Source: a virus
Direction: 5' to 3' (one strand)
IMG/VR virus record: IMGVR_UViG_3300025732_000026
Coordinates: 1 to 64,000 of that record
DNA: 64,000 nucleotides
Shown: positions 4,598 to 64,000 of the stretch, piece after piece
Layout of the letters: each line of letters opens with the position of its first letter
How positions within the stretch are numbered: position 1 is the stretch's first letter
Program-made: the position numbers and the translations under genes
The notes under the pieces: model-generated
Seen by the model: the letters and a program-made list of their open reading frames with translations, nothing else
Databases searched by the model: none
What the model was told of the DNA's origin: nothing

Positions 4598-6268
4598 ATG
4601 AATATTTATACAGAAACAACTAATCAAAGTCAAGAAATTCCTTTATGTCCATGTGGACAACATACCCATTTAGATAAAGCATATCCAGAAAAGGGCTATA
4701 CACAGTATTGTTCAGATGCATGTTCTAAGAAATATAGAAGTCAAAATAAAGAATATAACAAAATATTATCCAATAAAGATTGGCTGATTGATCAATTCAT
4801 AGACCAGAAAAAAGCAAAATGCCAGATTGCTAAAGAACTAAATTGTTCCGAAACAGTAATCAATAAATGGCTAAAAATCCACGATATTATTAAACCAAAG
4901 AAACATTCATGTCCCGAAATTTCAACTATTAATTATAATAATATTAATTCGAACATTGAATTGACCAAAGAAAATTTAGAATTTTTAGTAAAAACATATA
5001 CAAGTAAAACAAAATTACTTGAGAAACTAAAATTAAAACCAACCCAATTTAGAAGATTGCTGAAATCATTCGACATAGAATATGATGGTAGAAAAACGAG
5101 TAACACTAGAAGAAAACATGAAATTCCATCTAAAGAAGTGCTAATCGAGTTATATGAAAATCAAAATCTAACAATATTAGATATTTCAAAGAAATTCGAA
5201 TCATCCAATGTTACTGTTAGAAAATGGTTCAAACATCATAATATTGAATTATTAGAACATGCTGTAAATATTAAAAATAAAGTGTTGCCTAAGACGCGAA
5301 AAATTATGCTTGAACGTTATGGAAATGAAGTATATTTTGCAACCGATGAAGCTAAACAAAAGATTGCTAATACATTCATTGCAAAATATGGGGTTCGATA
5401 TCATCCAATAGGAAGTATATCCAAAGCGGAATTGGAAGTTTTAGATTTTCTAAATGAATTGGAACCAGGATTTCAAAATACTAAAATATTCGGAATAGAA
5501 CTTGATGGATATAATCCAAATATCAAAGTAGCAATGGAATTCAATGGATTATATTGGCATACGGAGGGAAGGAAAGGTAAGAATTTACATGAAAGAAAAT
5601 ATCGATTATGCAAAGAAAATGATATTAGATTATTCACTATCTTCGAAGATGAATGGCGCCATAGACAATCTCAAGTTAAGTCATTTATTCGCTCGGCATT
5701 GAATAAAAATGATATTAGACTATATGCTAGAGATCTGAAATTAGAAATTGTTGAACATCGACATATAGATGCATTAAAATTTATAGAAAATCATCATATT
5801 CAAGAAGTACCTTCAATTTTGAGTATTTTAAAACATTTCATGTTACTGGATAAAAATGGTTCTATCATTTCTTGTATGACTTTTTCCAGACACCCAAGAA
5901 ACGAATCAGAAATAGTCCTAAGTCGATATTGTGTAAAATCCAATCATTCCATATTAGGAGGCGCTAAAAGATTATTCAAACATGCCATTGATTATTTCAA
6001 GTGTGATATTAAAACATGGTCTGATAATCGCTGGACCGAGGGTAATTTATATGATAGACTTGGTTTTAAATTGTATAAAAATCTACCTAAAGATTATTCA
6101 TATGTAATTCCAGGAAATAATAGTATTAGAATACCAAAACAATCAATGTCTAAAACTAAAATGAAAGCAAGTGAAAATCAAACAGAATATGAAAGAGCAT
6201 TAGAATTGGGATTTGATAGAATCTGGGACTGTGGAAAGAAAACTTGGATTTTTAAATACAATAATTAA
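4598..6268 (+). CDS. Putative free-standing homing endonuclease (Hef/Vsr-like PD-(D/E)xK) with HTH repeats
   Basis: N-terminal Cys motifs, HTH repeats, KYG repeats, ELDGY..KVAMEFNGLYWH and IFEDEW; C-terminal domain ending RIWDCG. Paralogous to 23511..25124. Confidence 0.75.
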   Translation: MNIYTETTNQSQEIPLCPCGQHTHLDKAYPEKGYTQYCSDACSKKYRSQNKEYNKILSNKDWLIDQFIDQKKAKCQIAKELNCSETVINKWLKIHDIIKPKKHSCPEISTINYNNINSNIELTKENLEFLVKTYTSKTKLLEKLKLKPTQFRRLLKSFDIEYDGRKTSNTRRKHEIPSKEVLIELYENQNLTILDISKKFESSNVTVRKWFKHHNIELLEHAVNIKNKVLPKTRKIMLERYGNEVYFATDEAKQKIANTFIAKYGVRYHPIGSISKAELEVLDFLNELEPGFQNTKIFGIELDGYNPNIKVAMEFNGLYWHTEGRKGKNLHERKYRLCKENDIRLFTIFEDEWRHRQSQVKSFIRSALNKNDIRLYARDLKLEIVEHRHIDALKFIENHHIQEVPSILSILKHFMLLDKNGSIISCMTFSRHPRNESEIVLSRYCVKSNHSILGGAKRLFKHAIDYFKCDIKTWSDNRWTEGNLYDRLGFKLYKNLPKDYSYVIPGNNSIRIPKQSMSKTKMKASENQTEYERALELGFDRIWDCGKKTWIFKYNN

Positions 6269-7591: not shown

Positions 7592-7663
7592 TGGTTGCGG
7601 TCGCAGGAATCGAACCTGTCCTTCAGTTTATGAGACTGATATGCACCATTACACTTCCCCGCA
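7592..7663 (-). tRNA. tRNA with CAT anticodon (Met, fMet-like 5' end), imperfect acceptor stem
   Basis: Minus strand TGCGGGG...TCAGT-CTCATAA-ACTGA...GGTTCGATTCC...CCGCA-A-CCA. Confidence 0.8.
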
Positions 7664-10217: not shown

Positions 10218-10294
10218 TGGTGCGCCGTCAGGGACTTGAACCCCGCCTCTTCCCTTATGAGGGGAACACTCTCGACCAGGTGAGTTACCAGCGC
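10218..10294 (-). tRNA. tRNA with CAT anticodon (elongator Met or Ile2)
   Basis: Minus strand GCGCTGG...TTCCC-CTCATAA-GGGAA...GGTTCAAGTCC...CGGCGC-A-CCA. Confidence 0.85.
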
Positions 10295-18194: not shown

Positions 18195-18773
18195 ATGACT
18201 GAAATTTTAACAATTAATACTGAGCAAAATATAATTAAACATGATTTAATTGAACCATTGACAGTTTATACTGAAGGTTTTGAATCTCTAAATCAACGTA
18301 TACCCGAATACACTGGAAAATTACCAGATACTAAAATATCAAAAATTATTGATCAGTTAAAAGTGACGATGAAAAAATATAATGGCATGGGATTAGCAGC
18401 TAATCAATGCAATATTAATTTGAGATTGTTTATTTTAGGTTCAGAAAATTTTCAGTTTGTTTGTATAAATCCTAAAATATTGCGATGTTCTGATAAAATG
18501 ATTAGAGATAAGGAAGGTTGTCTTTCATATCCTGCATTATTTTTATCCAAGGAACGACCCGAAACAATTGAAGTAGAATTTTTGACGGAACAAGGTGAAC
18601 TTAAACAAGTAGAATTTTCTGGATTAACAGCTAGGATTTTCTGCCATGAATTGGATCATTTAGATGGTAAATTATTTACCGATAGTATTGGAAAAACGTC
18701 AATGCTTTTGGCTAGACAGAAGCAACAAAAATTGATCAAGAAGTTTTCGAGAATTGTTAAAAACAAATATTAA
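18195..18773 (+). CDS. def: Peptide deformylase
   Basis: All three PDF motifs present: GMGLAANQ, EGCLS, HELDHLDG. Confidence 0.95.
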   Translation: MTEILTINTEQNIIKHDLIEPLTVYTEGFESLNQRIPEYTGKLPDTKISKIIDQLKVTMKKYNGMGLAANQCNINLRLFILGSENFQFVCINPKILRCSDKMIRDKEGCLSYPALFLSKERPETIEVEFLTEQGELKQVEFSGLTARIFCHELDHLDGKLFTDSIGKTSMLLARQKQQKLIKKFSRIVKNKY

Positions 18774-23510: not shown

Positions 23511-25124
23511 TTAAAGATTTATGAAATACACTTTTTGGCCACAATCAAATATTCTGATCCAATCGTTGTTGAAGCAATTTTCTTCTTCTGTAAGCGTATC
23601 GTCAAAATTATCAAATATATTTTTTAATTTATGTTTTTGAAATTCTTGCCTATTTTTGATTAATCCAGATTTATAGTAAACATATCCTGGTTTGGATTGA
23701 TGTGAATATTGAAATCCGGATTTTTCATATGAAGTGCCATCGAATAATCTTAAATCACAGAAAGTTTGAATTGATGTAATATTATGATTTTTGACTGCGT
23801 GTTTCAGTAGTTTTGAAAATCCACCTATAATATTAGTGTTTATTAGATTGCAATATCGTAATAGTTCATGTGAATATTTCTTATCGAATCTCGATTTACC
23901 AAATCCAATAACAGCAACTAATTGTTTATTATATGTTAGTCCATATCGAATAGATGAATTAACATTGCCTTGAATATGATTATATTCTAAAAATTCTTTA
24001 TATGTATTCGAATTTAGTGGAATAATTTCGCATTTTCTTGCATAAATTCTTTCATTTAGTTTTAGATTTGATTTTATTATTGATTTAATAATATCTTGTT
24101 TTTGTAACCATTCAGTATCCCATATTTGAAGTAATTTGATATTTTGATCTTTGCATAAATTATATTTTATTAAGTGTCTATTTTCATCTTCAGCGTGAAA
24201 ATACATCCCATTAAATTCGATACCTAAATTATAATCTGGAAGATAAATATCGATTTCTTTAGGTTTGATGATTGTTCTATCGTTTATTTTTAAATTAGGA
24301 ATTCCTAATGACGATATAAAATCCTGTATTTCTTTTTGTTGTTTTCCAAATTTGGTCGAAAAGAAATTTATTTCTATATTATGTTGCTTAAACCATAGAT
24401 ATACTGCCCTATATGTCACTTGTAAATCTTTGGCAATATCAGTTATTGTTTTAGTTTTATTTTGTTCTTTTAGCCATTCTTTATTCCTAAGAGCATAATA
24501 TGCTTTTTCATTTTTTGATTTTAATATTTCATCGTTTGCATTTTGAATTTTTTCTTTTATTTCGGGCACTAAACACGTATGTTCATATCCATATTTTTCT
24601 AAATTTGTTTGTTTTGCTTTATCTATGTTATTATATTTTTCGTTGCCATATCTATCTAGTTTAGTTTTTTTTATTTTTCCAACAGATTCTTGTGTTTGAA
24701 AATAGTATTCTACACCATATTTTTTTAGATTAGATTCTTTTAACTTTTCTTGTAATTTTGAATAATCATTGTTAGTTTTTATTTTTAAATTTCTTTCATC
24801 CGATTGAGTTGAACAGTATTTCGAACAATAGTCATAATATCCATCATTAAATGTATTGAAGTTTACTGTATTTGATTGGCATGTTTTACAAATAGGAATT
24901 GTGGAAAGACCATTGATAATATGATAAATTCTTTCTGAGAATAAACAATCTTTAGATAAATGCTGTGTCGATGCTAATATATCATCATAGATTTCTTTGA
25001 TATTCTTGTTGATCCACCAAGATTCAAGACACACTCTATTGTTTAATCCTGATCTACCTTTTTTGGTAAAACAGTTTGCTTCGATCCAATCTTTTTTGTT
25101 GTTTAAATAAATTTGATATTGCAT
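23511..25124 (-). CDS. Putative free-standing homing endonuclease (Hef/Vsr-like)
   Basis: CxxC...YCSxxC, KYG repeats, EIDIYLPDYNLGIEFNGMYFH, IWDTEW, RIFDCG motifs. Confidence 0.75.
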   Translation of the reverse strand: MQYQIYLNNKKDWIEANCFTKKGRSGLNNRVCLESWWINKNIKEIYDDILASTQHLSKDCLFSERIYHIINGLSTIPICKTCQSNTVNFNTFNDGYYDYCSKYCSTQSDERNLKIKTNNDYSKLQEKLKESNLKKYGVEYYFQTQESVGKIKKTKLDRYGNEKYNNIDKAKQTNLEKYGYEHTCLVPEIKEKIQNANDEILKSKNEKAYYALRNKEWLKEQNKTKTITDIAKDLQVTYRAVYLWFKQHNIEINFFSTKFGKQQKEIQDFISSLGIPNLKINDRTIIKPKEIDIYLPDYNLGIEFNGMYFHAEDENRHLIKYNLCKDQNIKLLQIWDTEWLQKQDIIKSIIKSNLKLNERIYARKCEIIPLNSNTYKEFLEYNHIQGNVNSSIRYGLTYNKQLVAVIGFGKSRFDKKYSHELLRYCNLINTNIIGGFSKLLKHAVKNHNITSIQTFCDLRLFDGTSYEKSGFQYSHQSKPGYVYYKSGLIKNRQEFQKHKLKNIFDNFDDTLTEEENCFNNDWIRIFDCGQKVYFINL

Positions 25125-29807: not shown

Positions 29808-30188
29808 ATGACAGTTTGGGATTTTACAAATGCAATAATGCTTAACAAAAAGCAATTATTGGATAATGTTACTGAGAAAGAATTCATTCCATACATAATA
29901 AATAAAACATTATCATATCATCGAGATTGTATTTTTTATGCAAATGAGATGAATAGTAGATCATATTTAAGTAAAAATATGCAAAATGATTTTTACTTAA
30001 ATGCAATAAAACCAAGAAAACGACCATTCATAAAATGGTCGAAGCAAATAGATGATGTTGTTGTTGATCTCGTGAAAGATTTTTTTGGGTGTTCAGTAAG
30101 ACAGGCTAGAGAAATATTACCATTGATGGATGATAGTAAAATAGATTTCATAAAACAAAAAATAGATAAAGGTGGATTGAATGATTGA
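29808..30188 (+). CDS. gp62: Clamp loader small subunit gp62
   Basis: PYIINKTLS...ANEMN...KPRKR..KW..KGG motifs. Confidence 0.9.
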   Translation: MTVWDFTNAIMLNKKQLLDNVTEKEFIPYIINKTLSYHRDCIFYANEMNSRSYLSKNMQNDFYLNAIKPRKRPFIKWSKQIDDVVVDLVKDFFGCSVRQAREILPLMDDSKIDFIKQKIDKGGLND

Positions 30189-30588
30189 AATGAAAAATAT
30201 TGGTGTTGAGATAGAATTGCCAGATGATGAGTGTTTTTTGAAGATTCAAGAAACACTGACTCGAATTGGAATTCCTACTAAAGATTATAAGCTATTTCAA
30301 ACTGCACATATTTTACACAAACAAGGCAGATTTTGGATAGTACATTTTAAGGAAATGTTTATTCTTGATGGTAGGGAATCTAATGTATCGGATGACGATA
30401 TTGCGCGAAGAAATACTATATCCAAATTGCTTCAAGATTGGGAATTGGTTAAGATTCTCAATTTTAGATCGATAGAAGGTAATCTTGCTCCAATATCTGA
30501 TATTAAAATTATCAAACATTCAGAGAAATTTCGATGGGAATTATTGCCGAAATATACTATCGGAAAAAAACATTTTATTAGAAAATAA
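30181..30588 (+). CDS. regA: Translational repressor RegA
   Basis: FLKIQETLTRIGI, HILHKQG, IVHFKE, RRNTI, WELLPKY motifs. Confidence 0.95.
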   Translation: MIEMKNIGVEIELPDDECFLKIQETLTRIGIPTKDYKLFQTAHILHKQGRFWIVHFKEMFILDGRESNVSDDDIARRNTISKLLQDWELVKILNFRSIEGNLAPISDIKIIKHSEKFRWELLPKYTIGKKHFIRK

Positions 30589-31808: not shown

Positions 31809-32237
31809 ATGAACGTTTTTGAAGATCAAGCAAAATTTATGTTAGCAGTTGATAATACTGTTGGTGAATTTAATCCAAAACAATTTAAGTTGTATTTGAA
31901 ATTAATAGTTGAAGAATTTATCGAATTATTGGATGATAGTGAGTCGGGTAATAGGATCGATCAATTAGATGATTTAATTGATTTGTTGGTAGTCACAATC
32001 GGAACAATACATTCACTGGGAGTAAATCCAGAAGATGCTTGGAAAGAGGTAATACGATCTAATATGAGTAAAGTTGATCCTATTACTGGTAAAGTATTGA
32101 AACGCGAAGATGGGAAGGTTATTAAGCCAGAAGCATATTCATCTCCATTCTTAAATAATTGTGTGATTGGTGATGAATTGAACCAATTCGATTATTCAGA
32201 TGTAATTGCTGAGTTAAAAACTAAATTAGGAGTATAA
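31809..32237 (+). CDS. MazG/PRA-PH-like NTP pyrophosphohydrolase
   Basis: LIVEEFIEL...DDLIDLLVV...SNMSK...REDGKVIKP motifs. Confidence 0.85.
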   Translation: MNVFEDQAKFMLAVDNTVGEFNPKQFKLYLKLIVEEFIELLDDSESGNRIDQLDDLIDLLVVTIGTIHSLGVNPEDAWKEVIRSNMSKVDPITGKVLKREDGKVIKPEAYSSPFLNNCVIGDELNQFDYSDVIAELKTKLGV

Positions 32238-32551: not shown

Positions 32552-35097
32552 GTGTACTATACAAATGTTGCGGTTCTTGGGAATAATATCTGTCTTAGAG
32601 GTATAAAGAATGGTAAAAGATTTAACTCTAAGATTCAATATAAACCTAGTTTATATGTCAGATCAGAAATCGATTCGATATATAAAACTATTCATAGTGA
32701 AAATTTAGATAAAATTGAATTTGATAATATTAAATCTACCAGAGAATTTATTAACTCGTATAAAGATGTTGAGAATTTTTCAATATATGGAAATCAATCA
32801 TTTGAGTATGCTTTTATTGCAGATAATTTTAAAAATGAAATTGAATGGAATATAGATGACATATCAATTGCAATTGTTGATATTGAAACGTATAGTGCCA
32901 ATGGATTTCCAGATCCCGAGAAAGCTGAACATCCGATAACAGCTATTACCATACGGTATTTGAAACAATATTCAATATCATTCGCATGTGGTGAATATAC
33001 ACCTAAATTCACAAATTCAAAATATATAAATTGTTTAGATGAATATGATTTGTGTGTCAAATTTGTGAATTATTGGAATAAAAATTGTCCAGATATAATG
33101 ACAGGTTGGAATATTCAAGGATTTGATATTGCATATTTATTCAATCGAATATCTAAAATATGTGGAGAAACAGAAGTTCAAAAATTATCTCCTTGGGGTG
33201 TTATCAATAAATCTCAAAAATTTTCAAAAACGACCGGTAAAGCATATAGTATATATAAAATATATGGAATAGCAGTATTAGATTATCTTGATTTATATAA
33301 ACAATTTTCACCAGTTAAACAAGAATCTTATAAATTGGATGTAATTTGTAATTATGAGTTGGGTACTGGTAAATTAAATTATGATGAATATAGTTCCTTG
33401 CACCAATTATATGTTCAAAATTTTGAGAAATTTATTGATTATAATATTATTGATTGTGAGTTGATAGAACACCTAGAAGATAAGCTAAAGCTAATAGAAC
33501 TTGCTGCGACATTGGCATATGATACTAAATCTCAGTTCGAAGATGTGTTCACACAAACTAGAATGTGGGATGCAATTATATATAATCATCTACTAGCCAA
33601 TAATGTGATAATTCCTGCCAAGGAAATTTCAACAAAGGACGTTAAATTTGAGGGGGCATATGTTAAAGACCCCGTAGTTGGAAAATATAAAAATGTTGTT
33701 TCGTTTGATCTTGAGAGTTTATATCCTAGTTTGATTCAGCAATATAATTTGAGTCCCGATACAATTATCGAACCGGAAAATTATACACCAGAGATACGAG
33801 AAATCGTATCGCGGAATATAACAGTTGATAAATTATTGAATCAGGAAATCGATTTTTCTAAATTACAAAATGTCGTAATGGCAGCTAATGGTCATTTTTT
33901 TAGAATTGGTAAACAAGGATTTTTACCAGAAATATTGGCAAAAATGGGTGCTGATCGAAAAAAATATAAGAGATTGATGCTCGATACCAAGAAAGAATTA
34001 GAAAAACACAAAATCAATAATACATTAACTGATGATATTTTAAATGAATTAGAAAGAAAAATTGCCAGATATAATAATCTTCAATTGGCAAAAAAGGTTC
34101 AATCCAATTCGGGTTTTGGCACGCTAGGCAGCGCGTATTTTAGATTTTTTGATACCAGAATCGCAGAAGCGATAACGTTATCAGGACAATTGGCTGTTAG
34201 GTGGGTTGAACAAGAAGTAGATAAACTATTGAATCATTTATTAAAAACGGAAAACGAGAATTATTGTTTGTATTCTGATACTGATAGTTGTTTTTTGCTT
34301 TTAAATCAAGTAGTTAGTAGAGCAAGTATAGATCATTCAGTAGTTGAGAATAGAATAAATTTTCTGGATAAATTATGTGATACTATTATTCAACCACATA
34401 TTCAAAAAGCATATGATAAATTGTTTCGATATATTGGTGGATATGAGAATAAAATGTATATGAAACGTGAGAAAATATGTTCAGATGTTATTTTTACCGG
34501 AAAAAAACATTATATTCTGAGTGTATATGATAATGAGGGTGTTCGATATTCTGAACCTCAGTTGGCAATAGTTGGATTGGAAATGATTAAAACTTCTACT
34601 CCAACTATTATTCGAGATAAATTAAAGAACTTGTTAAAATTTTATTATATGGTACAGAAGTAGAATTACAAGAAGATATTTTACATTTTGAGAAAAAATT
34701 TATAGAAATGACACCGGAAGATATCGCATTTCCTAAAGGAGTGAATGGAATTAAGGAATATACTGATAGCATTTCGATCTATAGAAAAGGTACGCCCATT
34801 CATGTAAGAGGGAGTTTAATCTTCAATCATCAATTACAAAAATATTCAATTGACAACAAATATCCGAAAATACAAGATGGCACAAAAATAAAATATATCT
34901 ATCTAAAAGAGCCAAATGTATTCCATGAAAATGTTATAGCATTTGTTGATAAATTGCCGGATGAATTTATGTTACTAGAATATATTGATTATAATTTAAT
35001 GTTTGATAAAGTATTTCTAGCTCCAATTAAAAATGTAACTGAACATATTGGATGGTCGGTTAGAAAACAAAATAGTTTAGTTGGGTTCTTTGGTTGA
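32552..35097 (+). CDS. gp43: Family B DNA polymerase gp43, with a -1 frame break at ~34624 (848 aa if joined)
   Basis: DIET exonuclease, SFDLESLYPS, KVQSNSGFG and YSDTDS motifs. The thumb continues in the -1 frame (ELVKILLYGTEVELQEDILHFEKKFIEMTPEDIAFP) into ORF 34708..35097. Confidence 0.93.
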
Positions 35098-36207: not shown

Positions 36208-37551
36208 ATGAGTGATATTGAGAGAAAAATTCTTGAGAATTTATTACATAATGAACTATATGCTAGAAAAATTATACCTTTTATAGAGTTAGATTATTTT
36301 GTTGATTCAATTGATAGAACATTAGCACAAGAAATAGTACAATTTTTTGCTAAATATAATAAGCTACCTACGAAAGATATTATTAGCATAGAACTTTCCA
36401 ATCGAAAGAATTTATCGGATGAACTATTAACTAAATGTAATAAATTATTAAAGTCTTTGGAAGTAGATGATTCCAATATTGATTGGTTATTGAAACATAC
36501 CGAGAAATATTTTAAAGATCGCGCAGTCTATAATGCCATTCTAAAATCACTAACTATTATTAATAATGAGGATAAAGTTTTAACGCCAGAGGCGATACCG
36601 AAGATACTTCAGGATGCATTGGGAGTATCTTTTGATAAAAATGTCGGACATGATTATTTTATTGATGCCGAAGCAAGATATGATTTTTATAACCGTCGCG
36701 AAGAAAAAATACCATTTGATATTAATTTATTGAATAAAATTACAGATGGTGGCATGAGCAAAAAGAGTCTTACTATATTTCTTGCAATGACTGGATTAGG
36801 TAAAACTTTAGTGATGTGTCACATGGCGGCATCTGCTATATCACAGGGCAAAAATGTTTTATATATTACTTTGGAAATGGCAGAAGAACGAATAGCGCAG
36901 AGAATTGATGCAAATTTACTCAATATTGATATTAAAGATTTGGTGGCATTATCCAAGGAATCGTTTAATAAGAGAATTGATAAATTGCGTGATCGATCCA
37001 ATGGTAAATTAGTGATAAAGGAATATCCAACATCTAGTGCCCATGCTGGACATTTTAGGGTACTCTTAGAGGAGTTGAAAACTAAAAAGAATTTTCAACC
37101 AGATTTAATAGTAGTTGATTATTTAGGTATTTGTTCTAGTAGTCGAATTAAAATGAGTTCTGGTGCTAATTCTTATTTAATAGTTAAATCAATAGCAGAA
37201 GAATTGCGTGGATTAGCAATGGAATATAATGTTCCTGTCATCTCCGGTGCCCAAACTAATAAATGTTTGGTATTGAATACGTTAGTTGAGCATATGACTA
37301 AAGGAAAAATTCCGATCAAAGATTTGGTGATAGGTGATAAAATACTTGGTACGAATGGATTTGTTGATGTCAATCATATTTTTCCAATTGAAGAAAATGA
37401 AGTATATGAAATAGTATTAAAATCTGGGAAAAAAATAAAGTGTTCCAAAAAACACATTTTTCCAACAATTGATGGTATGAAATCGATAGACAATTTATTG
37501 CAGATTGGAGATTATTTATTTGTAAATAATGTTATTTCCCCAACACAGTAA
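36208..37551 (+). CDS. gp41: Replicative helicase gp41 N-extein fused to split-intein N half (intein 37264..37548)
   Basis: Walker A TGLGKT, TLEMAEE, KEYPT, VDYL, then QTNK|CLVLNT...KCSKKHIFPT (intein blocks A and B). Confidence 0.93.
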   Translation: MSDIERKILENLLHNELYARKIIPFIELDYFVDSIDRTLAQEIVQFFAKYNKLPTKDIISIELSNRKNLSDELLTKCNKLLKSLEVDDSNIDWLLKHTEKYFKDRAVYNAILKSLTIINNEDKVLTPEAIPKILQDALGVSFDKNVGHDYFIDAEARYDFYNRREEKIPFDINLLNKITDGGMSKKSLTIFLAMTGLGKTLVMCHMAASAISQGKNVLYITLEMAEERIAQRIDANLLNIDIKDLVALSKESFNKRIDKLRDRSNGKLVIKEYPTSSAHAGHFRVLLEELKTKKNFQPDLIVVDYLGICSSSRIKMSSGANSYLIVKSIAEELRGLAMEYNVPVISGAQTNKCLVLNTLVEHMTKGKIPIKDLVIGDKILGTNGFVDVNHIFPIEENEVYEIVLKSGKKIKCSKKHIFPTIDGMKSIDNLLQIGDYLFVNNVISPTQ

Positions 37552-37563
37552 AATGTTTGGAAT

Positions 37564-37602
37564 AATAAATAACTGTATACCACTAAAAAGGATACAGTTA
37601 TG
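37564..37602 (+). promoter_or_regulatory. Late promoter variant plus RBS-sequestering hairpin of the endonuclease
   Basis: AATAAATA overlaps the 5' arm of ATAACTGTAT/ATACAGTTAT, which encloses AAGG and the start codon. Confidence 0.65.
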
Positions 37603-38925
37603 GCAAGTTTCGATTATTTTTTAAAGACGATAAAGAAGAATGGTGTTGAGAATATTTCAGATGATGTGTTGAAGGAATTGCAGCGCATATTTGACGAATT
37701 TGGAGCGGTTCCTACGAAAATCATATCTAAACAGATTTTATTAGGGATACCTGATATATATAAAAGATTCGTAGAGTGTAGAAATAAATTAAAAAGTAAA
37801 GATTCTACCTCATATATTGCATGTATAATGAGATATGGTGAACATCATGGTGAAATAATATATCGTCAAAGATGTAAAGATTCAGCAATAACACTTGAGA
37901 ATTTACAAAATAAGTATGGAATACATCAGGGGGAGAAAAAATGGAATGATATGTTGGCAAAAAAATCATTTAGCTTGGCTGGATTTATTTTAAGGCATGG
38001 CGAAATAGATGGGCCAATAAAATACAAGGACTTTTGGGATAATACTAATTTTTCAACATCTAAAGATGCTTTTATTCGTAGACATGGTGAAATAGATGGA
38101 ATAGAAAGGTATAAGAAGTTTGTTGCAAAACAAGGATTCAACAATACATTATTAGCATATCATGAAAAATATGGTGTTGATTTAGGAAATATTCTATACA
38201 ATGAGCGACTTGCTAAGAAAAATGCAAATAGTAAAAAAGTTAAATATGTCACAAAATTGTTAGAATCTGGTAAAACTATAAATGAAATTAATGTTTTATT
38301 GGATAAAAGATATAATAAAACTTCGCTTAATAGTTTCATCAAAAGATATGGACTGGATATAGGAACTGCGAAATATACAGAATTTATTTCTAAACTAAAA
38401 AGTAATAATGTTCTATGTATCGAATATTATAGAAAAAGGGGCATTTCGGATACTACTTCGTTTGAATTGATATCCGACATTCAAGGAAAGAGAAACTGTA
38501 AATCCAATTTCTCAAAAGAATCAATGAAATATTTGTTGCCAATAGTTTTAAAAATTGAAGAAGTCACTGAAAATAATTGTTTCTATGGCGAAGATGAATT
38601 CTTTATTAGAACAAATAAAGAAGAATTTGATGTGTCTGGTAAAAGAATATTCTTTTACGATTTTGTTTTTCCTAAATTAAATTTAATATTCGAATATCAT
38701 GGTGTAAGATTCCATGCGGATGTTGATTATAGTTCAACTCATAGTTTGAATTTAGCGGAATTCAAACTCAATTTTGATTCGGATTTGTTTAAGAAATATG
38801 TGGCGGAAAATAGAGGTTTTGATGTTAAGATTATTAGAAGTTGGAACTTGAAAGAGGATATGAATGCTTTATATGATTATTTGCGCGATAGGGGAATAGT
38901 ATTATGTCAATCACTTTTTGTTTAG
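37600..38925 (+). mobile_element. Free-standing Vsr-like homing endonuclease between the split-intein halves
   Basis: Repeated (R/K)(H/Y)GxxxG units; C-terminal FYDF...IFEYHGVRFH...D..K...RGFDVKII. Confidence 0.8.
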
Positions 38926-39350
38926 ATGAAATCGTAAGTATTAGAAAAATTGGAACTGAGAAAACAGTTGATATATCAGTTTCGAATGATAATTTATTTT
39001 TTGCAAATGATATTTTAACTCATAATAGCGGATATGATAATTCAGATGTTGATTTGTCCAATATGTCGGAATCTTATGGACTTAATTCAACAGCAGATTT
39101 GATTTTAGGTTTGATTCGAACAGAAGAACTTGATAAATTAAATCAAATAATGGTTAAACAATTAAAGAATCGATATTCCGATCTATCAACTAATAAACGT
39201 TTCGTTGTAGGTGTTGATCGATCTAAGATGAGATTATATAACATAGAAGATGTCGGACAGGAAAGAATCGCCGATTCGGGAGTAGAATTGAATGATGATA
39301 GAAATAAGAAAAGACGATTCAATAAAGATTTTTCTGGATTAAAATTGTAA
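38904..39350 (+). CDS. gp41: Split-intein C half (41 aa, 38904..39026) fused to the gp41 C-extein
   Basis: DISVSNDNLFFANDILTHN|SGY, then SESYGL..TAD, VKQLKNRY, FVVGVDRSKMRLY. Confidence 0.93.
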   Translation: MSITFCLDEIVSIRKIGTEKTVDISVSNDNLFFANDILTHNSGYDNSDVDLSNMSESYGLNSTADLILGLIRTEELDKLNQIMVKQLKNRYSDLSTNKRFVVGVDRSKMRLYNIEDVGQERIADSGVELNDDRNKKRRFNKDFSGLKL

Positions 39351-61482: not shown

Positions 61483-61728
61483 ATGATAGATTTGGAAGAT
61501 ATTGATTTTGAAACATTTTCAAATTGGCATCCAGCAGTACAAATAGTTGCAATAATTGTTTCATTTTTAGTATTAGCACCGTTGCTATTTGGAATATTTG
61601 CTTCGATTTCAATGATAATTTTTTTTGGAACTATTTGTGTTGGTATTGGTTTATTTTGTTTTACGATATTAGAAATAGTTGATAGATATAAATTGAAAAA
61701 AGATATTGACAATTTAACTAAATTATAA
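61483..61728 (+). CDS. Small membrane protein
   Basis: SD GAGG; long hydrophobic segment. Confidence 0.55.
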   Translation: MIDLEDIDFETFSNWHPAVQIVAIIVSFLVLAPLLFGIFASISMIIFFGTICVGIGLFCFTILEIVDRYKLKKDIDNLTKL

Positions 61729-61734
61729 TAGAAT
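61706..61734 (+). promoter_or_regulatory. Sigma70-type promoter for tRNA-Asn and the adjacent ncRNA
   Basis: TTGACA-17 nt-TAGAAT, 12 nt before the tRNA. Confidence 0.75.
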
Positions 61735-61746
61735 TCTATTATCAAT

Positions 61747-61836
61747 TCCGCCCGGACTGGCTAGGTGAAAGTCTCTGACTGTTAATCAGAAGGCGCAAGA
61801 AATTGCGGCGAGGTTCGAATCCTCGGAGCGGAGCCA
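61747..61836 (+). tRNA. tRNA-Asn(GTT) with a long variable arm
   Basis: TCTGA-CTGTTAA-TCAGA; variable arm CGCAA-GAAA-TTGCG; CGAGG-TTCGAAT-CCTCG; G73-CCA. Confidence 0.9.
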
Positions 61837-61841
61837 AGTTT

Positions 61842-62109
61842 AACATATTATGGAGGTAGGATTAGAGGCGTCCATCCTTTAAAGAGTAGTGATATGCGCG
61901 TGTAATCTGGGGATAGTTTACTCATATGAACCCCCTGAATGTCGAGTTTGACAAACTGGAATTATGAGCGAGAATATCTAAAGGCGAAGAAGTACACAAC
62001 AGTCGGTTTGTAATGTGATACAGAAGTCAAGGTATTAGAAAAAAGATTGCCTGGGCGAACGAACAAAAATGTCCAATAGCTTTTGGCGTAACAGCACACA
62101 TAATATGTT
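61842..62109 (+). ncRNA. Structured RNA containing a 23S rRNA GTPase-associated-centre (H43/H44) mimic with a 198-nt insert
   Basis: 11-bp closing stem AACATATTATG/CATAATATGTT around GAGGTAGGATTAGAGGCGTCCATCCTTTAAAGAGT...GCGTAACAGCACA. Confidence 0.75.
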
Positions 62110-62126
62110 TTTATTTTAGGAAATTT

Positions 62127-62501
62127 ATGAAAAAACTATTTGTTTTTGGAAGTAATTTACGTGGCGTTCATGGTGCAGGTGCAGCCAGATTTGCATTTGA
62201 CAATCATAATGCTAAATGGGGATGTGGTATAGGTAGAACGGGCGATTGTTATGCTATTCCTACAAAAGATGATAATATCAAAACATTGCCATTAAATGTG
62301 ATAAAAAATTATGTTGATGAATTTGTTCTTTATGCCAAAGAACATCCTGAGCTAATGTTCGAAGTTACTAAAATAGGTTGTGGATTAGCTGGATATAAAA
62401 ATAAAGATATAGCTCCTATGTTTCTTGATGCCCCGGAAAATTGTTTATTAGATGATGAATGGGTTAAAATAATAGATGAGTTAAAAATTAATGGAAATTA
62501 A
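62127..62501 (+). CDS. Conserved phage protein, macro-domain-like (A1S_2505 type)
   Basis: FVFGSNL.G.HGAGAA, YAIPT, VTKIGCGLAG motifs. Confidence 0.75.
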   Translation: MKKLFVFGSNLRGVHGAGAARFAFDNHNAKWGCGIGRTGDCYAIPTKDDNIKTLPLNVIKNYVDEFVLYAKEHPELMFEVTKIGCGLAGYKNKDIAPMFLDAPENCLLDDEWVKIIDELKINGN

Positions 62502-63015
62502 CGCCAAGGAATTAACTTGCGATTGGATAAAGACCTTCGCTGCAAGTGAAAATTTAGATTTGTATCATATGACATTAGTATATGATTTTTTCCAAAACGG
62601 AAATTTCCATGCTGACAACATAAATGCATTCTTTGCAACATTTTATATGCGAAGATTTTTACCATTTTTATTATCAACTAAAAATTATCATACAAATTTT
62701 CAACGAACTCGCCAACCAACAACATTCGCATTTGTATGTGATCACTTAAACAAAAACTCCGAAAAAGATCATATTTACAGTGGAAAGTTGTTTAATCATG
62801 CTATCGTATGTGTTCCAAATGCAATTAAGGATAAGACATGCGCACTTCTGGGTGTAGATACATTAACAAAAGAATTTTCAATTCCAAAAATATATAATAT
62901 TAAGTATTCTACTTTCAAAAAATGTGATGATGTCGCAATTGAAATTGCAACTAGAAGTATTTTCAAATACCCAAATTATCAAATTTTTTCACCCAAAGTA
63001 AAATTTAAAAAATGA
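62491..63015 (+). CDS. Hypothetical protein
   Basis: ORF overlapping the previous stop. Confidence 0.55.
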   Translation: MEINAKELTCDWIKTFAASENLDLYHMTLVYDFFQNGNFHADNINAFFATFYMRRFLPFLLSTKNYHTNFQRTRQPTTFAFVCDHLNKNSEKDHIYSGKLFNHAIVCVPNAIKDKTCALLGVDTLTKEFSIPKIYNIKYSTFKKCDDVAIEIATRSIFKYPNYQIFSPKVKFKK

Positions 63016-63218: not shown

Positions 63219-63437
63219 ATGTTTATTATGTTTAGTACAATTGTTGTATGTGTTTCAATATTGATAATGCTTATCATCACTCAAGAAAACATATCATTAC
63301 CTAAAAGTTTAGAACTATTAATTTTAATTTTAATGTTTTCTTCAATTATTGTGATCGAATCCGGGTTTGAGTATTTGTTAGATTATGATTCCCTACAACT
63401 GGAATTTAAAGAATACAAATTGGCACAAACTAAATGA
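63219..63437 (+). CDS. Small membrane protein
   Basis: SD GGAG; two hydrophobic segments. Confidence 0.55.
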   Translation: MFIMFSTIVVCVSILIMLIITQENISLPKSLELLILILMFSSIIVIESGFEYLLDYDSLQLEFKEYKLAQTK

Positions 63438-64000
63438 AAATAAATGGTAAAGAATTGGAAAAATCTTTTATTTTTCCAGCGGGTGAAGTACAAATAAAAT
63501 TACCTAAATTCCACATTAATGGTAAAGAAAATAAAATAGTAGTGGAAACAGTTATCGATTCATCTGATAAAATTATGGAATTGCTTCTAGTCAAAGAAGC
63601 GTTAGATAATTATTATTCTTGTTATTATACTAAATTGATTCTACATTATTTACCATATGCTAGACAAGATAGACGTTGTGCAGATGATGAATCATTTGCT
63701 GGTAAAGTTGCAATTGAATTGATTGATAATCTATGTTTTTCTGAAATTGAAATAGCAGATATACATAATGTGAATTTACTGAATCATTTTATTCGAACTA
63801 AAGTTAAACATATTTCGGTATTGGATATCATAACAAAAAATAGTGATATTCTTCAATATGTTAATACTATAATTGCGCCCGATAAGGGCGCATTGGATAA
63901 AGTAAAGGAAATAGCTGACACATATAAAAAAGATTTTCTATTCGCAACCAAAAAACGAGATGTAAATACTGGTAAAATTACTGATTTATGTTTTGAATTC
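63434..64000 (+). CDS. prs: Ribose-phosphate pyrophosphokinase, 3'-truncated by the window edge
   Basis: Manual translation: FPAGEVQ, YLPYARQDRRC, DIHN, IIAPDKGA, KKRDVNTGKI. Confidence 0.88.
   Translation, partial: MKINGKELEKSFIFPAGEVQIKLPKFHINGKENKIVVETVIDSSDKIMELLLVKEALDNYYSCYYTKLILHYLPYARQDRRCADDESFAGKVAIELIDNLCFSEIEIADIHNVNLLNHFIRTKVKHISVLDIITKNSDILQYVNTIIAPDKGALDKVKEIADTYKKDFLFATKKRDVNTGKITDLCFEF

What the first reader, a model, noticed from the sequence alone, without database searches (positions are those of the whole stretch)
61842..62109. Phage ncRNA that rebuilds the 23S rRNA GTPase-associated centre (L11/thiostrepton site) around a 198-nt insert
Seen: 5 nt after the CCA of tRNA-Asn and downstream of a TTGACA-17-TAGAAT promoter, a perfect 11-bp stem (61842-61852 / 62099-62109) encloses GAGGUAGGAUUAGAGGCGUCCAUCCUUUAAAGAGU (to 61887) and GCGUAACAGCACA (from 62086). 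Established: bacterial 23S ~1056-1103 reads GAUGUUGGCUUAGAAGCAGCCAUCAUUUAAAGAAAGCGUAAUAGCUCA (E. coli, from memory) and binds L11 and the translational GTPases. The phage copy keeps both loops (UUAGA.GC and GUAA.A, the A1067 and A1095 equivalents). It shows compensatory changes (GGC/GCC to GGA/UCC; U1090-A1101) and a non-rRNA closing helix, which argues for selection on structure rather than a recent rRNA contaminant. The intervening 198 nt are ORF-poor and contain helices (CUCAUA/UAUGAG, GAUAU/AUAUC, AGGUA/UGCCU). Inference: a ribosome-mimic RNA that could titrate L11, act as a decoy for RelA/EF-G/IF2, or absorb rRNA-targeting anti-phage enzymes. I do not recognise a named family for it.
Basis: partly seen in the sequence, partly recalled or inferred. 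Interest (0 to 1): 0.9.

Follow-up and report, generated by a model that had tools for sequence, protein, structure and literature searches.

The report
Phage RNA copying ribosome's uL11-binding centre
This freshwater T4-like phage makes an abundant small RNA whose two ends rebuild the piece of ribosomal RNA that binds protein uL11 and meets the translation GTPases, split by a 198-base extra domain; it belongs to a large phage RNA family that I found in no database or paper, and its job is untested.

Summary
61842-62109 (+) is a perfect 11-bp stem enclosing a copy of 23S rRNA helices 43 and 44 (the GTPase-associated centre, GAC), interrupted between positions 1090 and 1091 by 198 nt. It is not chance and not an rRNA contaminant. 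A covariance model built from 24 other phage copies finds it as the only hit in the window (82.9 bits, E 8.6e-24). The family shows strong covariation: 96.4% of cells paired against 72.8% in shuffles, and 16 of 24 pairs change on both sides. It occurs once per genome in 5 of 5 phage genomes tested, including cultured Pseudomonas phages pf16 and UNO-G1W1 and Cronobacter phage GAP32, usually inside tRNA arrays. New here: contigs from two metatranscriptome runs of one study cover 61860-62100 with the insert retained, at depths 14.7 and 118, and end at 62100 in adapter letters. The flanking genes have no cover. So it is an abundant RNA that keeps its insert. No Rfam family matches, and nine paper searches found no description. 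The function is inferred, not shown: an off-ribosome imitation of the GAC, most likely binding host uL11. This scan has noted the same family before on other genomes.

The parts
61706..61734 (+). Sigma-70-like promoter, TTGACA-17-TAGAAT, 13 nt upstream of the tRNA-like gene
   Evidence: 11 of 12 matches. The region gave 6 such sites against 4.7 expected, so this is a consensus match only.
61747..61836 (+). tRNA-like gene, anticodon GUU, 90 nt with a long variable arm and an encoded CCA. It lies directly upstream on the same strand.
   Evidence: ARAGORN. The Rfam tRNA model scores 27.9 bits, under the gathering score of 29.
61842..61852 (+). 5' strand of the closing stem, the stand-in for H42. 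G61852 corresponds to G1055.
   Evidence: 11 nt, 100% complementary to 62099-62109. The family stem covaries at 9 of 9 pairs.
61853..61878 (+). G1056 plus the H43 hairpin (1057-1081). The loop UUAGAGGCG holds the A1067 equivalent at 61864.
   Evidence: H43 pairs form in 100% of cells in 24 family members.
61879..61887 (+). Junction (1082-1086) and the 5' strand of the H44 base (G1087, A1088, G1089, U1090)
   Evidence: G1087-C1102 pairs in 46 of 46 members and U1090-A1101 in 45 of 46.
61888..62081 (+). Lineage-specific inserted domain. It is closed by a short helix: 61888-61890 pairs with 62079-62081 (A-U, G-C, U.G).
   Evidence: In the family, the first four insert pairs form in 46, 46, 41 and 35 of 46 members, with several pair types. 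The window's insert has no homologue among the fetched loci. Insert (61888-62085, linker included) GC is 39.9% against 29.6% for the window.
62082..62085 (+). Conserved single-stranded linker UUUG between the insert helix and the H44 top
   Evidence: The linker is TTTG in 37 of 46 members.
62086..62098 (+). H44 top hairpin (G1091-C1100, loop GUAACA, A1095 equivalent at 62090), the 3' strand of the H44 base (A1101, C1102), and A1103
   Evidence: A1101 is found in 45 of 46 members, where Salmonella 23S has U.
62099..62109 (+). 3' strand of the closing stem. The RNA contigs stop at 62100.
61860..62100 (.). Stretch covered by contigs specific to this phage in two metatranscriptome runs. The insert is kept and the contigs end in adapter letters.
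   Evidence: records 9 and 18. Depths are 14.7 and 118.2, with 0 and 2 other letters. No joint is reported, and cover is zero on 61600-61735 and 62110-62600. Strand cannot be read from contigs.
62127..62501 (+). Next gene, 124 aa, function unknown. It is not a conserved partner of the RNA family.
   Evidence: No Pfam family. phrog_2072, unknown function. In other members the neighbours are tRNA genes.

Best explanation
Shown:
- 61842-62109 encodes a non-coding RNA of a large phage family.
- Its two ends form a self-contained copy of the 23S rRNA GTPase-associated centre. This comprises the H43 hairpin, the three-way junction and H44, closed by a stem of free sequence where the ribosome has H42.
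- A domain buds out of H44 between 1090 and 1091. It is helix-closed, variable in the family (85-313 nt) and 198 nt long here. A conserved UUUG linker follows it.
- H44 top and base have no linker on the 3' strand, so they can still stack.

Shown as a hint:
- The RNA is abundant in environmental RNA and keeps its insert.
- It has an end at 62099/62100.

Inferred:
- It is transcribed with the upstream tRNA-like gene from the promoter at 61706 and is cut out by the tRNA-processing enzymes. The long stem may serve as a processing stem.
- It then acts off the ribosome as an imitation of the GAC. It most likely binds the host's uL11, whose C-terminal domain recognises exactly this autonomous tertiary fold.
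- By doing so it would change uL11-dependent steps of host translation or stress signalling.

Confidence is about 0.9 that it is an expressed structural GAC mimic of this family. It is about 0.45 that uL11 is the partner.
For: - Family membership: model R1 was built without the window and hits 61839-62108 full length, at 82.9 bits and E 8.6e-24. It is the only hit in 64 kb. Real Salmonella 23S scores lower, at 54.5 bits.
- Structure: 96.4% of cells are paired against 72.8% in shuffles (0 of 500 shuffles reach it). 16 of 24 pairs change on both sides. The covariation score is 0.639 against at most 0.19 for slid controls.
- The pair 1058-1080 uses G-C, U-A, A-U and C-G and forms in 46 of 46 members. 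The non-standard contacts of the rRNA fold are kept as non-pairs: purine1056.A1103 (G.A 31, A.A 14, G.G 1), U1060.pyrimidine1078 in 45 of 46, and G1093.A1098.
- Homology to rRNA: the 5' arm of member L023 hits Rfam LSU_rRNA_bacteria at model positions 1089-1152 (E 6.2e-6, below the gathering score).
Of 74 distinct loci, 42 have the canonical 3' arm.
- There is one copy in each of 5 of 5 phage genomes.
- 40 of 60 loci have tRNA or tmRNA genes on the same strand within 300-500 nt. In 16 of these the tRNA abuts the element.
- Expression.
- None of the 5 phage genomes encodes a uL11 domain, while the control rang in 14 of 14 genomes. Any uL11 partner would therefore be the host's.
Against: - No binding was tested, so the partner is inference only.
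- Thermodynamic folding gives no signal. The whole element has z -0.73 and 61888-62081, most of the insert, has z +0.33. That is expected for the GAC, which has few Watson-Crick pairs, but it adds nothing.
- Rfam's LSU model does not reach the window's own copy.
- The RNA evidence comes from contigs of two runs of one study. Strand and 5' end cannot be read from them. The contig start at 61860/61861 probably reflects words shared with other family members.
- An end at 62100 would remove most of the 3' strand of the closing stem. That sits badly with a mature RNA 'closed by 11 bp'.
- Ribosome-bound uL11 is already occupied, so a sponge could act only on free or exchanging uL11.
- Much of the core's invariance was forced by my search patterns. 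These fixed 1065-1069, 1071-1072, 1081-1088, 1091-1096, 1098-1100 and 1102.
- Some members have altered H44 loops, so not every contact of the rRNA site is kept.
Confidence: 0.5

Rival explanations
1. Decoy substrate. The RNA soaks up an agent that attacks the ribosomal GAC, such as an ADP-ribosyltransferase, nuclease or thiopeptide used by the host or by competitors. Ribosomes would then keep working during infection.
For: A bacterial toxin that modifies exactly this site exists. Tre23 ADP-ribosylates 23S H44 at 1095-1098 and impairs EF-G GTPase (PMC8661411, passages read). The RNA is abundant. The H44 loop G1093, U1094, A1095 and A1098 are kept in most members, including variant loops.
Against: No anti-phage system with this target is known to me, and none turned up in the searches. 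One sub-lineage (L005, L032, L040) keeps H43 but has rewritten the H44 loop. That does not fit a decoy for an enzyme aimed at H44. A decoy would have to compete with thousands of ribosomes.
Confidence: 0.15
2. Factor trap. With or without uL11, the RNA binds a protein that docks on the GAC (EF-G, IF2, RF1/RF2, RelA with its tRNA). It would lower that protein's free pool, for instance to damp the stringent response or to change stop-codon termination.
For: Both loops that touch the factors, including the A1067 and A1095 equivalents, are kept in the window and in most members. The phage also carries other translation and stress genes: a MazG-like pyrophosphohydrolase, a RegA-like translation repressor and a peptide deformylase. 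Members L032 and L040 sit near a suppressor-type tRNA with anticodon CTA. The dependence of RelA and RF1 on uL11 is recalled knowledge, not from a call.
Against: On the ribosome these factors bind through many contacts (sarcin-ricin loop, bL12, the 30S subunit), which the RNA lacks. No part of any insert resembles another 23S region: hits outside the GAC are scattered 10-14-nt matches with E of 0.007 or more. The window phage reads normally in the standard code.
Confidence: 0.1
3. No trans function. The element is only a structured spacer that guides processing of the tRNA-array transcript, or a cis-regulatory leader for the next gene.
For: It lies within or beside tRNA arrays. The closing stem covaries although the RNA contig ends inside it. 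In the window it ends 17 nt before the next ORF.
Against: A spacer or leader has no need to copy the GAC loops, the junction and the non-canonical contacts. Downstream neighbours differ between members: tRNA genes, unrelated ORFs, and intergenic DNA in GAP32. The RNA accumulates while the neighbouring gene has no RNA cover.
Confidence: 0.05
4. An rRNA remnant: a captured or mis-assembled piece of host 23S rRNA, perhaps carrying a self-splicing intron.
For: The sequence is similar to 23S. The insert interrupts a helix strand, as rRNA introns do.
Against: No other 23S sequence is present in the record. The closing stem replaces H42 and covaries. The same design recurs in many unrelated phage contigs. 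There is no intron or ribozyme hit at E up to 10. Inserts as short as 85 nt exist. The RNA contigs keep the insert and show no joint.
Confidence: 0.02

Closest known systems
GTPase-associated centre of bacterial 23S rRNA (tip of H42, H43, H44; the roughly 58-nt uL11/thiostrepton-binding domain)
   Same: It has the same H43 hairpin and loop, the same junction, the same H44 top hairpin and the same non-canonical contacts. The 5' arm is identical to Salmonella LT2 23S at 27 of 34 positions. The domain is known to fold on its own and to bind L11 only when folded (PMC6239185, passages).
   Different: It is free-standing in a phage genome. A stem of arbitrary sequence closes it instead of H42. H44 is split by an inserted domain plus a UUUG linker. 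Position 1101 is A where Salmonella has U. It is not part of any rRNA gene.
rRNA-mimicking leaders of ribosomal-protein operons (for example the uL1 site of the L11-L1 operon, and the L10(L12)4 leader)
   Same: These are RNAs outside the ribosome that imitate an r-protein's rRNA binding site (PMC10931766, passages).
   Different: Those are cis-acting mRNA leaders of cellular r-protein operons, and they are partial mimics. This one is a separate stable RNA in a phage and a near-complete copy of a whole rRNA domain. It lies next to no r-protein gene: 0 of 5 phage genomes encode uL11. I know of no natural uL11-binding mimic (recalled).
Phage T4 species 1 and species 2 stable RNAs (rnaC, rnaD)
   Same: They are small stable RNAs encoded at the end of a T4-type phage's tRNA gene cluster on the tRNA strand (annotation). 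That their function is unknown is recalled.
   Different: There is no sequence or structure relationship. The best R1 score over the T4 tRNA region is 8.2 bits, E 0.041, with filters off.
Phage-encoded tRNAs and tmRNA
   Same: They are translation-related RNA genes of large phages, found in the same arrays and on the same strand. A tmRNA gene lies beside member L066.
   Different: Those are working copies of cellular RNAs. This one copies only one domain of an rRNA and cannot work as a ribosome part by itself.

Membership tests
   61839-62108, model positions 1-200 of 200, 82.9 bits, E 8.6e-24. The window was not in the model.
   (window letters). A1101 is found in 45 of 46 members.
   In the window, 61888-61890 pairs with 62079-62081 and the linker is 62082-62085. 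In the family the pairs form in 46, 46, 41 and 35 of 46 members, and the linker is TTTG in 37 of 46.
   In the window the stem is 11 bp and perfect. In the family 9 of 9 stem pairs change on both sides.
   The window is a T4-like phage, with a tRNA-like gene 5 nt upstream. 40 of 60 family loci have tRNA or tmRNA genes on the same strand.
Bacterial LSU rRNA (Rfam RF02541) | Match to the LSU model at or above its gathering score, within an rRNA gene | tested here: not met
   No match in the window or the whole record. The control rang in 13 of 14 genomes.
Group I / group II intron or other ribozyme within an rRNA fragment | Match to an intron or ribozyme model, and removal of the insert from the RNA | tested here: not met
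   There is no such Rfam match at E up to 10 over 61600-62300. The RNA contigs carry the insert unbroken, with no joint in the RNA runs.
Ribosomal-protein autoregulatory leader | Sits in the 5' UTR of the operon of the protein it binds | tested here: not met
   The downstream gene has unknown function and no Pfam family (phrog_2072). No uL11 domain was found in 5 of 5 phage genomes.
uL11-binding RNA (functional class) | Binds uL11 C-terminal domain; binding stabilised by thiostrepton and Mg2+ | not testable with these tools
   No RNA-protein binding or RNA 3D tool is on hand. This needs a bench assay.

The most novel reading that the evidence does not exclude
Large phages of many hosts carry a portable, protein-free copy of a ribosomal functional centre and express it at high level. 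With host uL11 it forms an off-ribosome 'stalk base'. That particle would reprogramme uL11-dependent steps, such as RelA activation and the balance of RF1/RF2 termination, or shield ribosomes from attack on the GAC. The variable domain budding from H44 would be a lineage-specific adaptor that tethers the particle to a further partner. This would be a new class of viral host-takeover RNA. It would also give a first function to one of the 'extra' stable RNAs found in phage tRNA clusters.
Probability: 0.3. Interest if true: 0.95.

Novelty: categorically new. Interest (0 to 1): 0.85.

Why it matters
Phages are known to carry tRNAs, tmRNA and a few ribosomal proteins, but a free-standing copy of an rRNA functional centre is not among the described kinds of phage RNA. 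The family is large and spans many host groups, from Pseudomonas, Cronobacter, Xanthomonas and Aeromonas phages to Clostridia-associated contigs and this freshwater T4-like phage. It also has members in cultured phages with tractable hosts (pf16, UNO-G1W1), so its function can be tested directly.

The GAC is the docking site of all translational GTPases, of uL11, of thiopeptide antibiotics and of at least one bacterial toxin. An abundant imitation of it during infection therefore points to an unknown way of manipulating or protecting host translation. The RNA is also a natural, self-folding GAC scaffold that tolerates large insertions at a defined site, which may be useful for RNA structural work.

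Tried and rejected
1. Homologues of the window's own 198-nt insert, wanted for covariation:
- blastn against all fetched loci gave nothing better than E 0.77.
- GenBank phages gave no match to the element.
- A viral-contig pattern of the window's H43 variant gave 12 loci, all of a short-insert sub-lineage.
- A search for loci related to the downstream protein gave none.
- The one metagenome scan gave a near-identical strain, L137, differing at 2 nt.
- So the insert's structure could not be tested.

2. Does the insert imitate another part of 23S, such as the sarcin-ricin loop? No. Hits outside the GAC are scattered chance matches of 10-14 nt.

3. Insert-less copies carrying the family's A1101: 0 in viral contigs. 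A contiguous form with those letters appears as a loose end in RNA run X20, but I cannot tell whether it is a phage RNA or some organism's rRNA.

4. A variable-gap pattern on the window found nothing, because the gap range I gave was too short for a 198-nt insert. It is uninformative.

5. T4 rnaC/rnaD as relatives: rejected.

6. Thermodynamic z-scores: uninformative.

7. Cover in the RNA runs:
- The tRNA-like gene is covered only by contigs of other organisms, with 5 differences in 41 nt.
- No contig shown reaches upstream of 61851.
- The contigs specific to this phage start at 61860/61861.
- So co-transcription with the tRNA and the 5' end remain open.

8. DNA runs X4 and X10 gave only short pieces. 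One X4 contig has both arms with a different 159-nt insert in place of 162 nt.

9. Habitat labels of the runs (freshwater, aquatic, estuary) were not checked by laying them in full.

10. The paper search on uL11-dependent RF1/RelA effects gave no usable passage, so those statements are recalled.

11. Supplements of PMC10690425 were not opened. The family could be among its 8,495 unnamed candidates.

Full report
**What is there.** The window is the first 64 kb of an 88.6-kb IMG/VR virus record, estimated about half complete. PHROG matches show a T4-like myovirus. It has the major head protein, protease and scaffold, a late sigma factor, clamp and clamp loader, a RegA-like repressor, DNA polymerase, UvsX/UvsY, MazG-like and peptide deformylase genes, and nrdA/nrdB just upstream of the finding. 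The genome is AT-rich at 29.6% GC. The element has 39.6% GC and its insert 39.9%.

The layout on the + strand is as follows:
- A promoter-like site, TTGACA-17-TAGAAT, lies at 61706-61734 (11 of 12 matches).
- ARAGORN calls a 90-nt tRNA with anticodon GTT at 61747-61836.
- Five bases later the element begins. The arms 61842-61852 and 62099-62109 are perfectly complementary over 11 nt.

**Is it like the ribosome, and more than chance?** I used a tool-supplied reference, Salmonella LT2 23S rRNA.
- The 5' arm is identical at 27 of 34 positions, with local score 20.
- The best score for the same query anywhere else in the window, on either strand, is 12.

I number positions by the E. coli convention, which is recalled: the A of the UUAGA loop is taken as 1067. 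The differences from Salmonella fall in pairs: 1058-1080 is G-C instead of U-A, and 1064-1074 is A-U instead of C-G. In H44, U1090 faces A1101. G61852-C62099 takes the place of G1055-C1104, and G1056 and A1103 are kept, so the 11-bp stem continues the register of H42. Rfam's LSU model does not reach this copy. It does reach the 5' arm of another family member, L023, at model positions 1089-1152 (29.2 bits, E 6.2e-6, below the gathering score).

**A large family.**
- By eye, about 20 are chance matches and 2 are ordinary contiguous rRNA (L039, L109). The rest share the design of the window.
- After removing duplicates, 74 distinct loci carry the 5' arm followed by G. Of these, 42 have the canonical 3' arm within 420 nt.
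- In 24 more I found a complement of the closing stem. By eye, 18 of those carry an H44 arm with a variant loop, for instance GUAGCA or GUAGAA. One has a compensated C1092-G1099 to U-A change.
- In 46 distinct split members, including the window, the insert is 85-313 nt long, median 141.5.

**Structure test.** I aligned 24 members with inserts of 142 nt or less, leaving the window out, and counted pairs for the rRNA-derived structure.
- 96.4% of cells pair, against 72.8% in shuffles (0 of 500 shuffles reach it).
- 16 of 24 pairs change on both sides.
- The covariation score is 0.639, against 0.11-0.19 when partners are slid by 1-3 columns.
- All 9 closing-stem pairs and all 4 insert-closing pairs covary.

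Across the 46 members:
- 1058-1080 is always paired, using four pair types.
- The contacts that are non-standard in the rRNA fold stay non-standard.
- U1090-A1101 forms in 45 of 46 members.
- The linker after the insert is UUUG in 37 of 46.

One caution applies. My patterns fixed 1065-1069, 1071-1072, 1081-1088, 1091-1096, 1098-1100 and 1102, so invariance there is not evidence. The covarying positions were free to vary.

**Membership of the window copy.** The covariance model R1, built from those 24 sequences, finds one hit in the window. It spans 61839-62108, full length, at 82.9 bits and E 8.6e-24. Real Salmonella 23S scores 54.5 bits with the same model.

**Where the family lives.**
- R1 finds exactly one copy in each of five phage genomes: this record, a complete 196-kb IMG/VR phage, and Pseudomonas phage UNO-G1W1, Pseudomonas phage pf16 and Cronobacter phage GAP32.
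- blastn with a member's 5' arm also matches phages of Aeromonas, Xanthomonas, Erwinia, Serratia, Pectobacterium, Yersinia and Vibrio. The match lies under no annotated feature in most of these records, and under a 'hypothetical protein' CDS in two.
- In UNO-G1W1 the element fills the gap between tRNA-Trp and tRNA-Arg. In pf16 it lies between tRNA-Asn and tRNA-Pro. In GAP32 it lies in a 293-nt intergenic gap.
- Of 60 IMG/VR loci scanned, 40 have at least one tRNA or tmRNA gene within the 300-500 nt held, always on the element's strand. In 16 a tRNA ends about 20 nt before the H43 motif, that is, at the foot of the closing stem, as in the window.
- In one genome for each of 185,579 prokaryote species, the 3' arm signature occurs in 44 contigs. 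Of these, 28 are full-length R1 hits. Most are MAG contigs. A few are isolates of Clostridia (for example Flintibacter muris), presumably prophages, which I did not check.

**Expression.** Two metatranscriptome runs of one study hold contigs that match this phage's element through the insert.
- One contig covers 61860-62100 with 0 differences at depth 14.7. The other covers 61861-62100 with 2 substitutions and one inserted base, at depth 118.
- Both end at 62100 in letters that I recognise (recalled) as the start of the Illumina adapter.
- No contig goes on into 62110-62600 or covers 61600-61735, and no joint skips the insert.

I read this as an abundant, discrete RNA that keeps its insert and has an end at 62099/62100. 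Several limits apply:
- The evidence comes from contigs of one study.
- Strand is not readable from contigs.
- The left end at 61860/61861 probably reflects words shared with other family members, whose contigs overlap 61851-61900.
- The end at 62100 would leave only two pairs of the 11-bp stem. The covarying stem may therefore be a processing stem rather than part of the mature RNA. This is inference.

**The insert.**
- It has no detectable relative beyond a near-identical strain.
- A DNA contig of a related phage keeps both arms but has a different 159-nt insert, so inserts turn over while the arms stay.
- The only natural variation seen inside the window's insert lies at 62050-62052.
- The three proposed helices have pair probabilities of about 0.01, 0.4 and 0.3.
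- The fold of 61888-62081 (194 of the insert's 198 nt) is no more stable than shuffles.
- The insert matches no Rfam family and no other region of 23S.
- Twelve of 46 members share a motif near the 3' end of their inserts. The window lacks it.

**What it probably does.** Established knowledge:
- The GAC is an autonomous fold that L11 recognises only when it is folded (PMC6239185, passages).
- It is the site of thiopeptides and of the toxin Tre23, which ADP-ribosylates H44 at 1095-1098 (PMC8661411, passages).
- Cellular mRNA leaders imitate rRNA sites to bind r-proteins (PMC10931766, passages).

None of the five phage genomes encodes uL11. A free, abundant and faithful copy of the domain most simply binds what the domain binds, and uL11 is the one partner known to need nothing else from the ribosome. 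I therefore favour an off-ribosome uL11-binding mimic. A sink for GAC-targeting agents and a factor trap are the rivals. The sub-lineage that keeps H43 but rewrites the H44 loop leans towards a partner that reads H43 and the junction. No step of this paragraph was tested.

**Novelty.**
- No Rfam family covers the element.
- None of the nine answered full-text searches turned up a description of it.
- The main texts of two large surveys of candidate structured RNAs do not mention 23S or L11 (PMC10690425 and PMC5737381, term searches). Their supplements were not read.
- T4's rnaC and rnaD share the genomic setting but are unrelated.
- Earlier notes of this scan describe the same family on other genomes and reached the same reading. 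I saw them after forming mine, and I re-derived the family, the covariation and the model independently.

Noticed in passing
window 61747-61836 (+): The upstream 'tRNA-Asn' is unusual. It is 90 nt long with a long variable arm, which in bacteria is the type-II shape of Leu/Ser/Tyr tRNAs (recalled). It has anticodon GUU, G before the encoded CCA, and one C.A mismatch in the acceptor stem by my reading. The Rfam tRNA model scores 27.9 bits, below the gathering score of 29. If it were charged by its body rather than its anticodon, it would misread Asn codons. UNO-G1W1 also has an 86-nt 'tRNA-Asn' annotated.
   Followed up: partly
window 7596-7662 (-) and 10218-10294 (-): There is a second tRNA region far from the finding. 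tRNA-Met is called by both ARAGORN and Rfam. A further Rfam tRNA match (34.4 bits) at 7596-7662 was not called by ARAGORN.
   Followed up: no
window 32552-35094, 36208-39347, 4598-6265, 23514-25124: The DNA polymerase is in two ORFs (32552-34660 and 34708-35094). The DnaB-like helicase is in two pieces (36208-37548 and 38904-39347) with an unrelated ORF between them. Two large HNH/homing-endonuclease genes are present. These signs suggest mobile elements active in this phage's replication genes.
   Followed up: no
L032 291-435 and L040: In a short-insert sub-lineage of the family, a 90-nt tRNA with anticodon CTA (an amber-suppressor type, which ARAGORN calls 'Pyl') lies about 100 nt upstream of the element. 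Between them is a weak match to an HDV-like ribozyme model (26.1 bits, E 0.14, below the gathering score).
   Followed up: no
inserts of L003, L006, L008, L009, L038, L044, L048, L060, L067, L098, L101, L115: Twelve of 46 members share a conserved motif (CACCCC-purine, a few bases, GGUAAG) ending 15-17 nt (30 in L115) before the end of the insert as I cut it, linker included. This looks like a common sub-domain of one branch of the family. It is absent from the window.
   Followed up: partly
RNA run X20, loose end behind window 61885: A short, well-covered RNA contig continues from the junction straight into an H44 arm that carries the family's A1101, with no insert. No such contiguous form exists in IMG/VR by exact pattern. 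It may be an insert-less relative or some organism's rRNA.
   Followed up: partly
window 61913-61926 with 62126-62139: A 14-nt imperfect inverted repeat (86% complementary) joins the insert to the start codon region of the next ORF. It could be chance, or it could be a pairing that masks the ribosome-binding site in an unprocessed transcript.
   Followed up: no
window 31809-32234, 30181-30585, 18195-18770, 63434-64000: The phage carries a MazG-like pyrophosphohydrolase, a RegA-like translation repressor, a peptide deformylase and a PRPP-synthetase-like gene. This is a set of host-translation and stress-related functions alongside the rRNA-mimic RNA.
   Followed up: no
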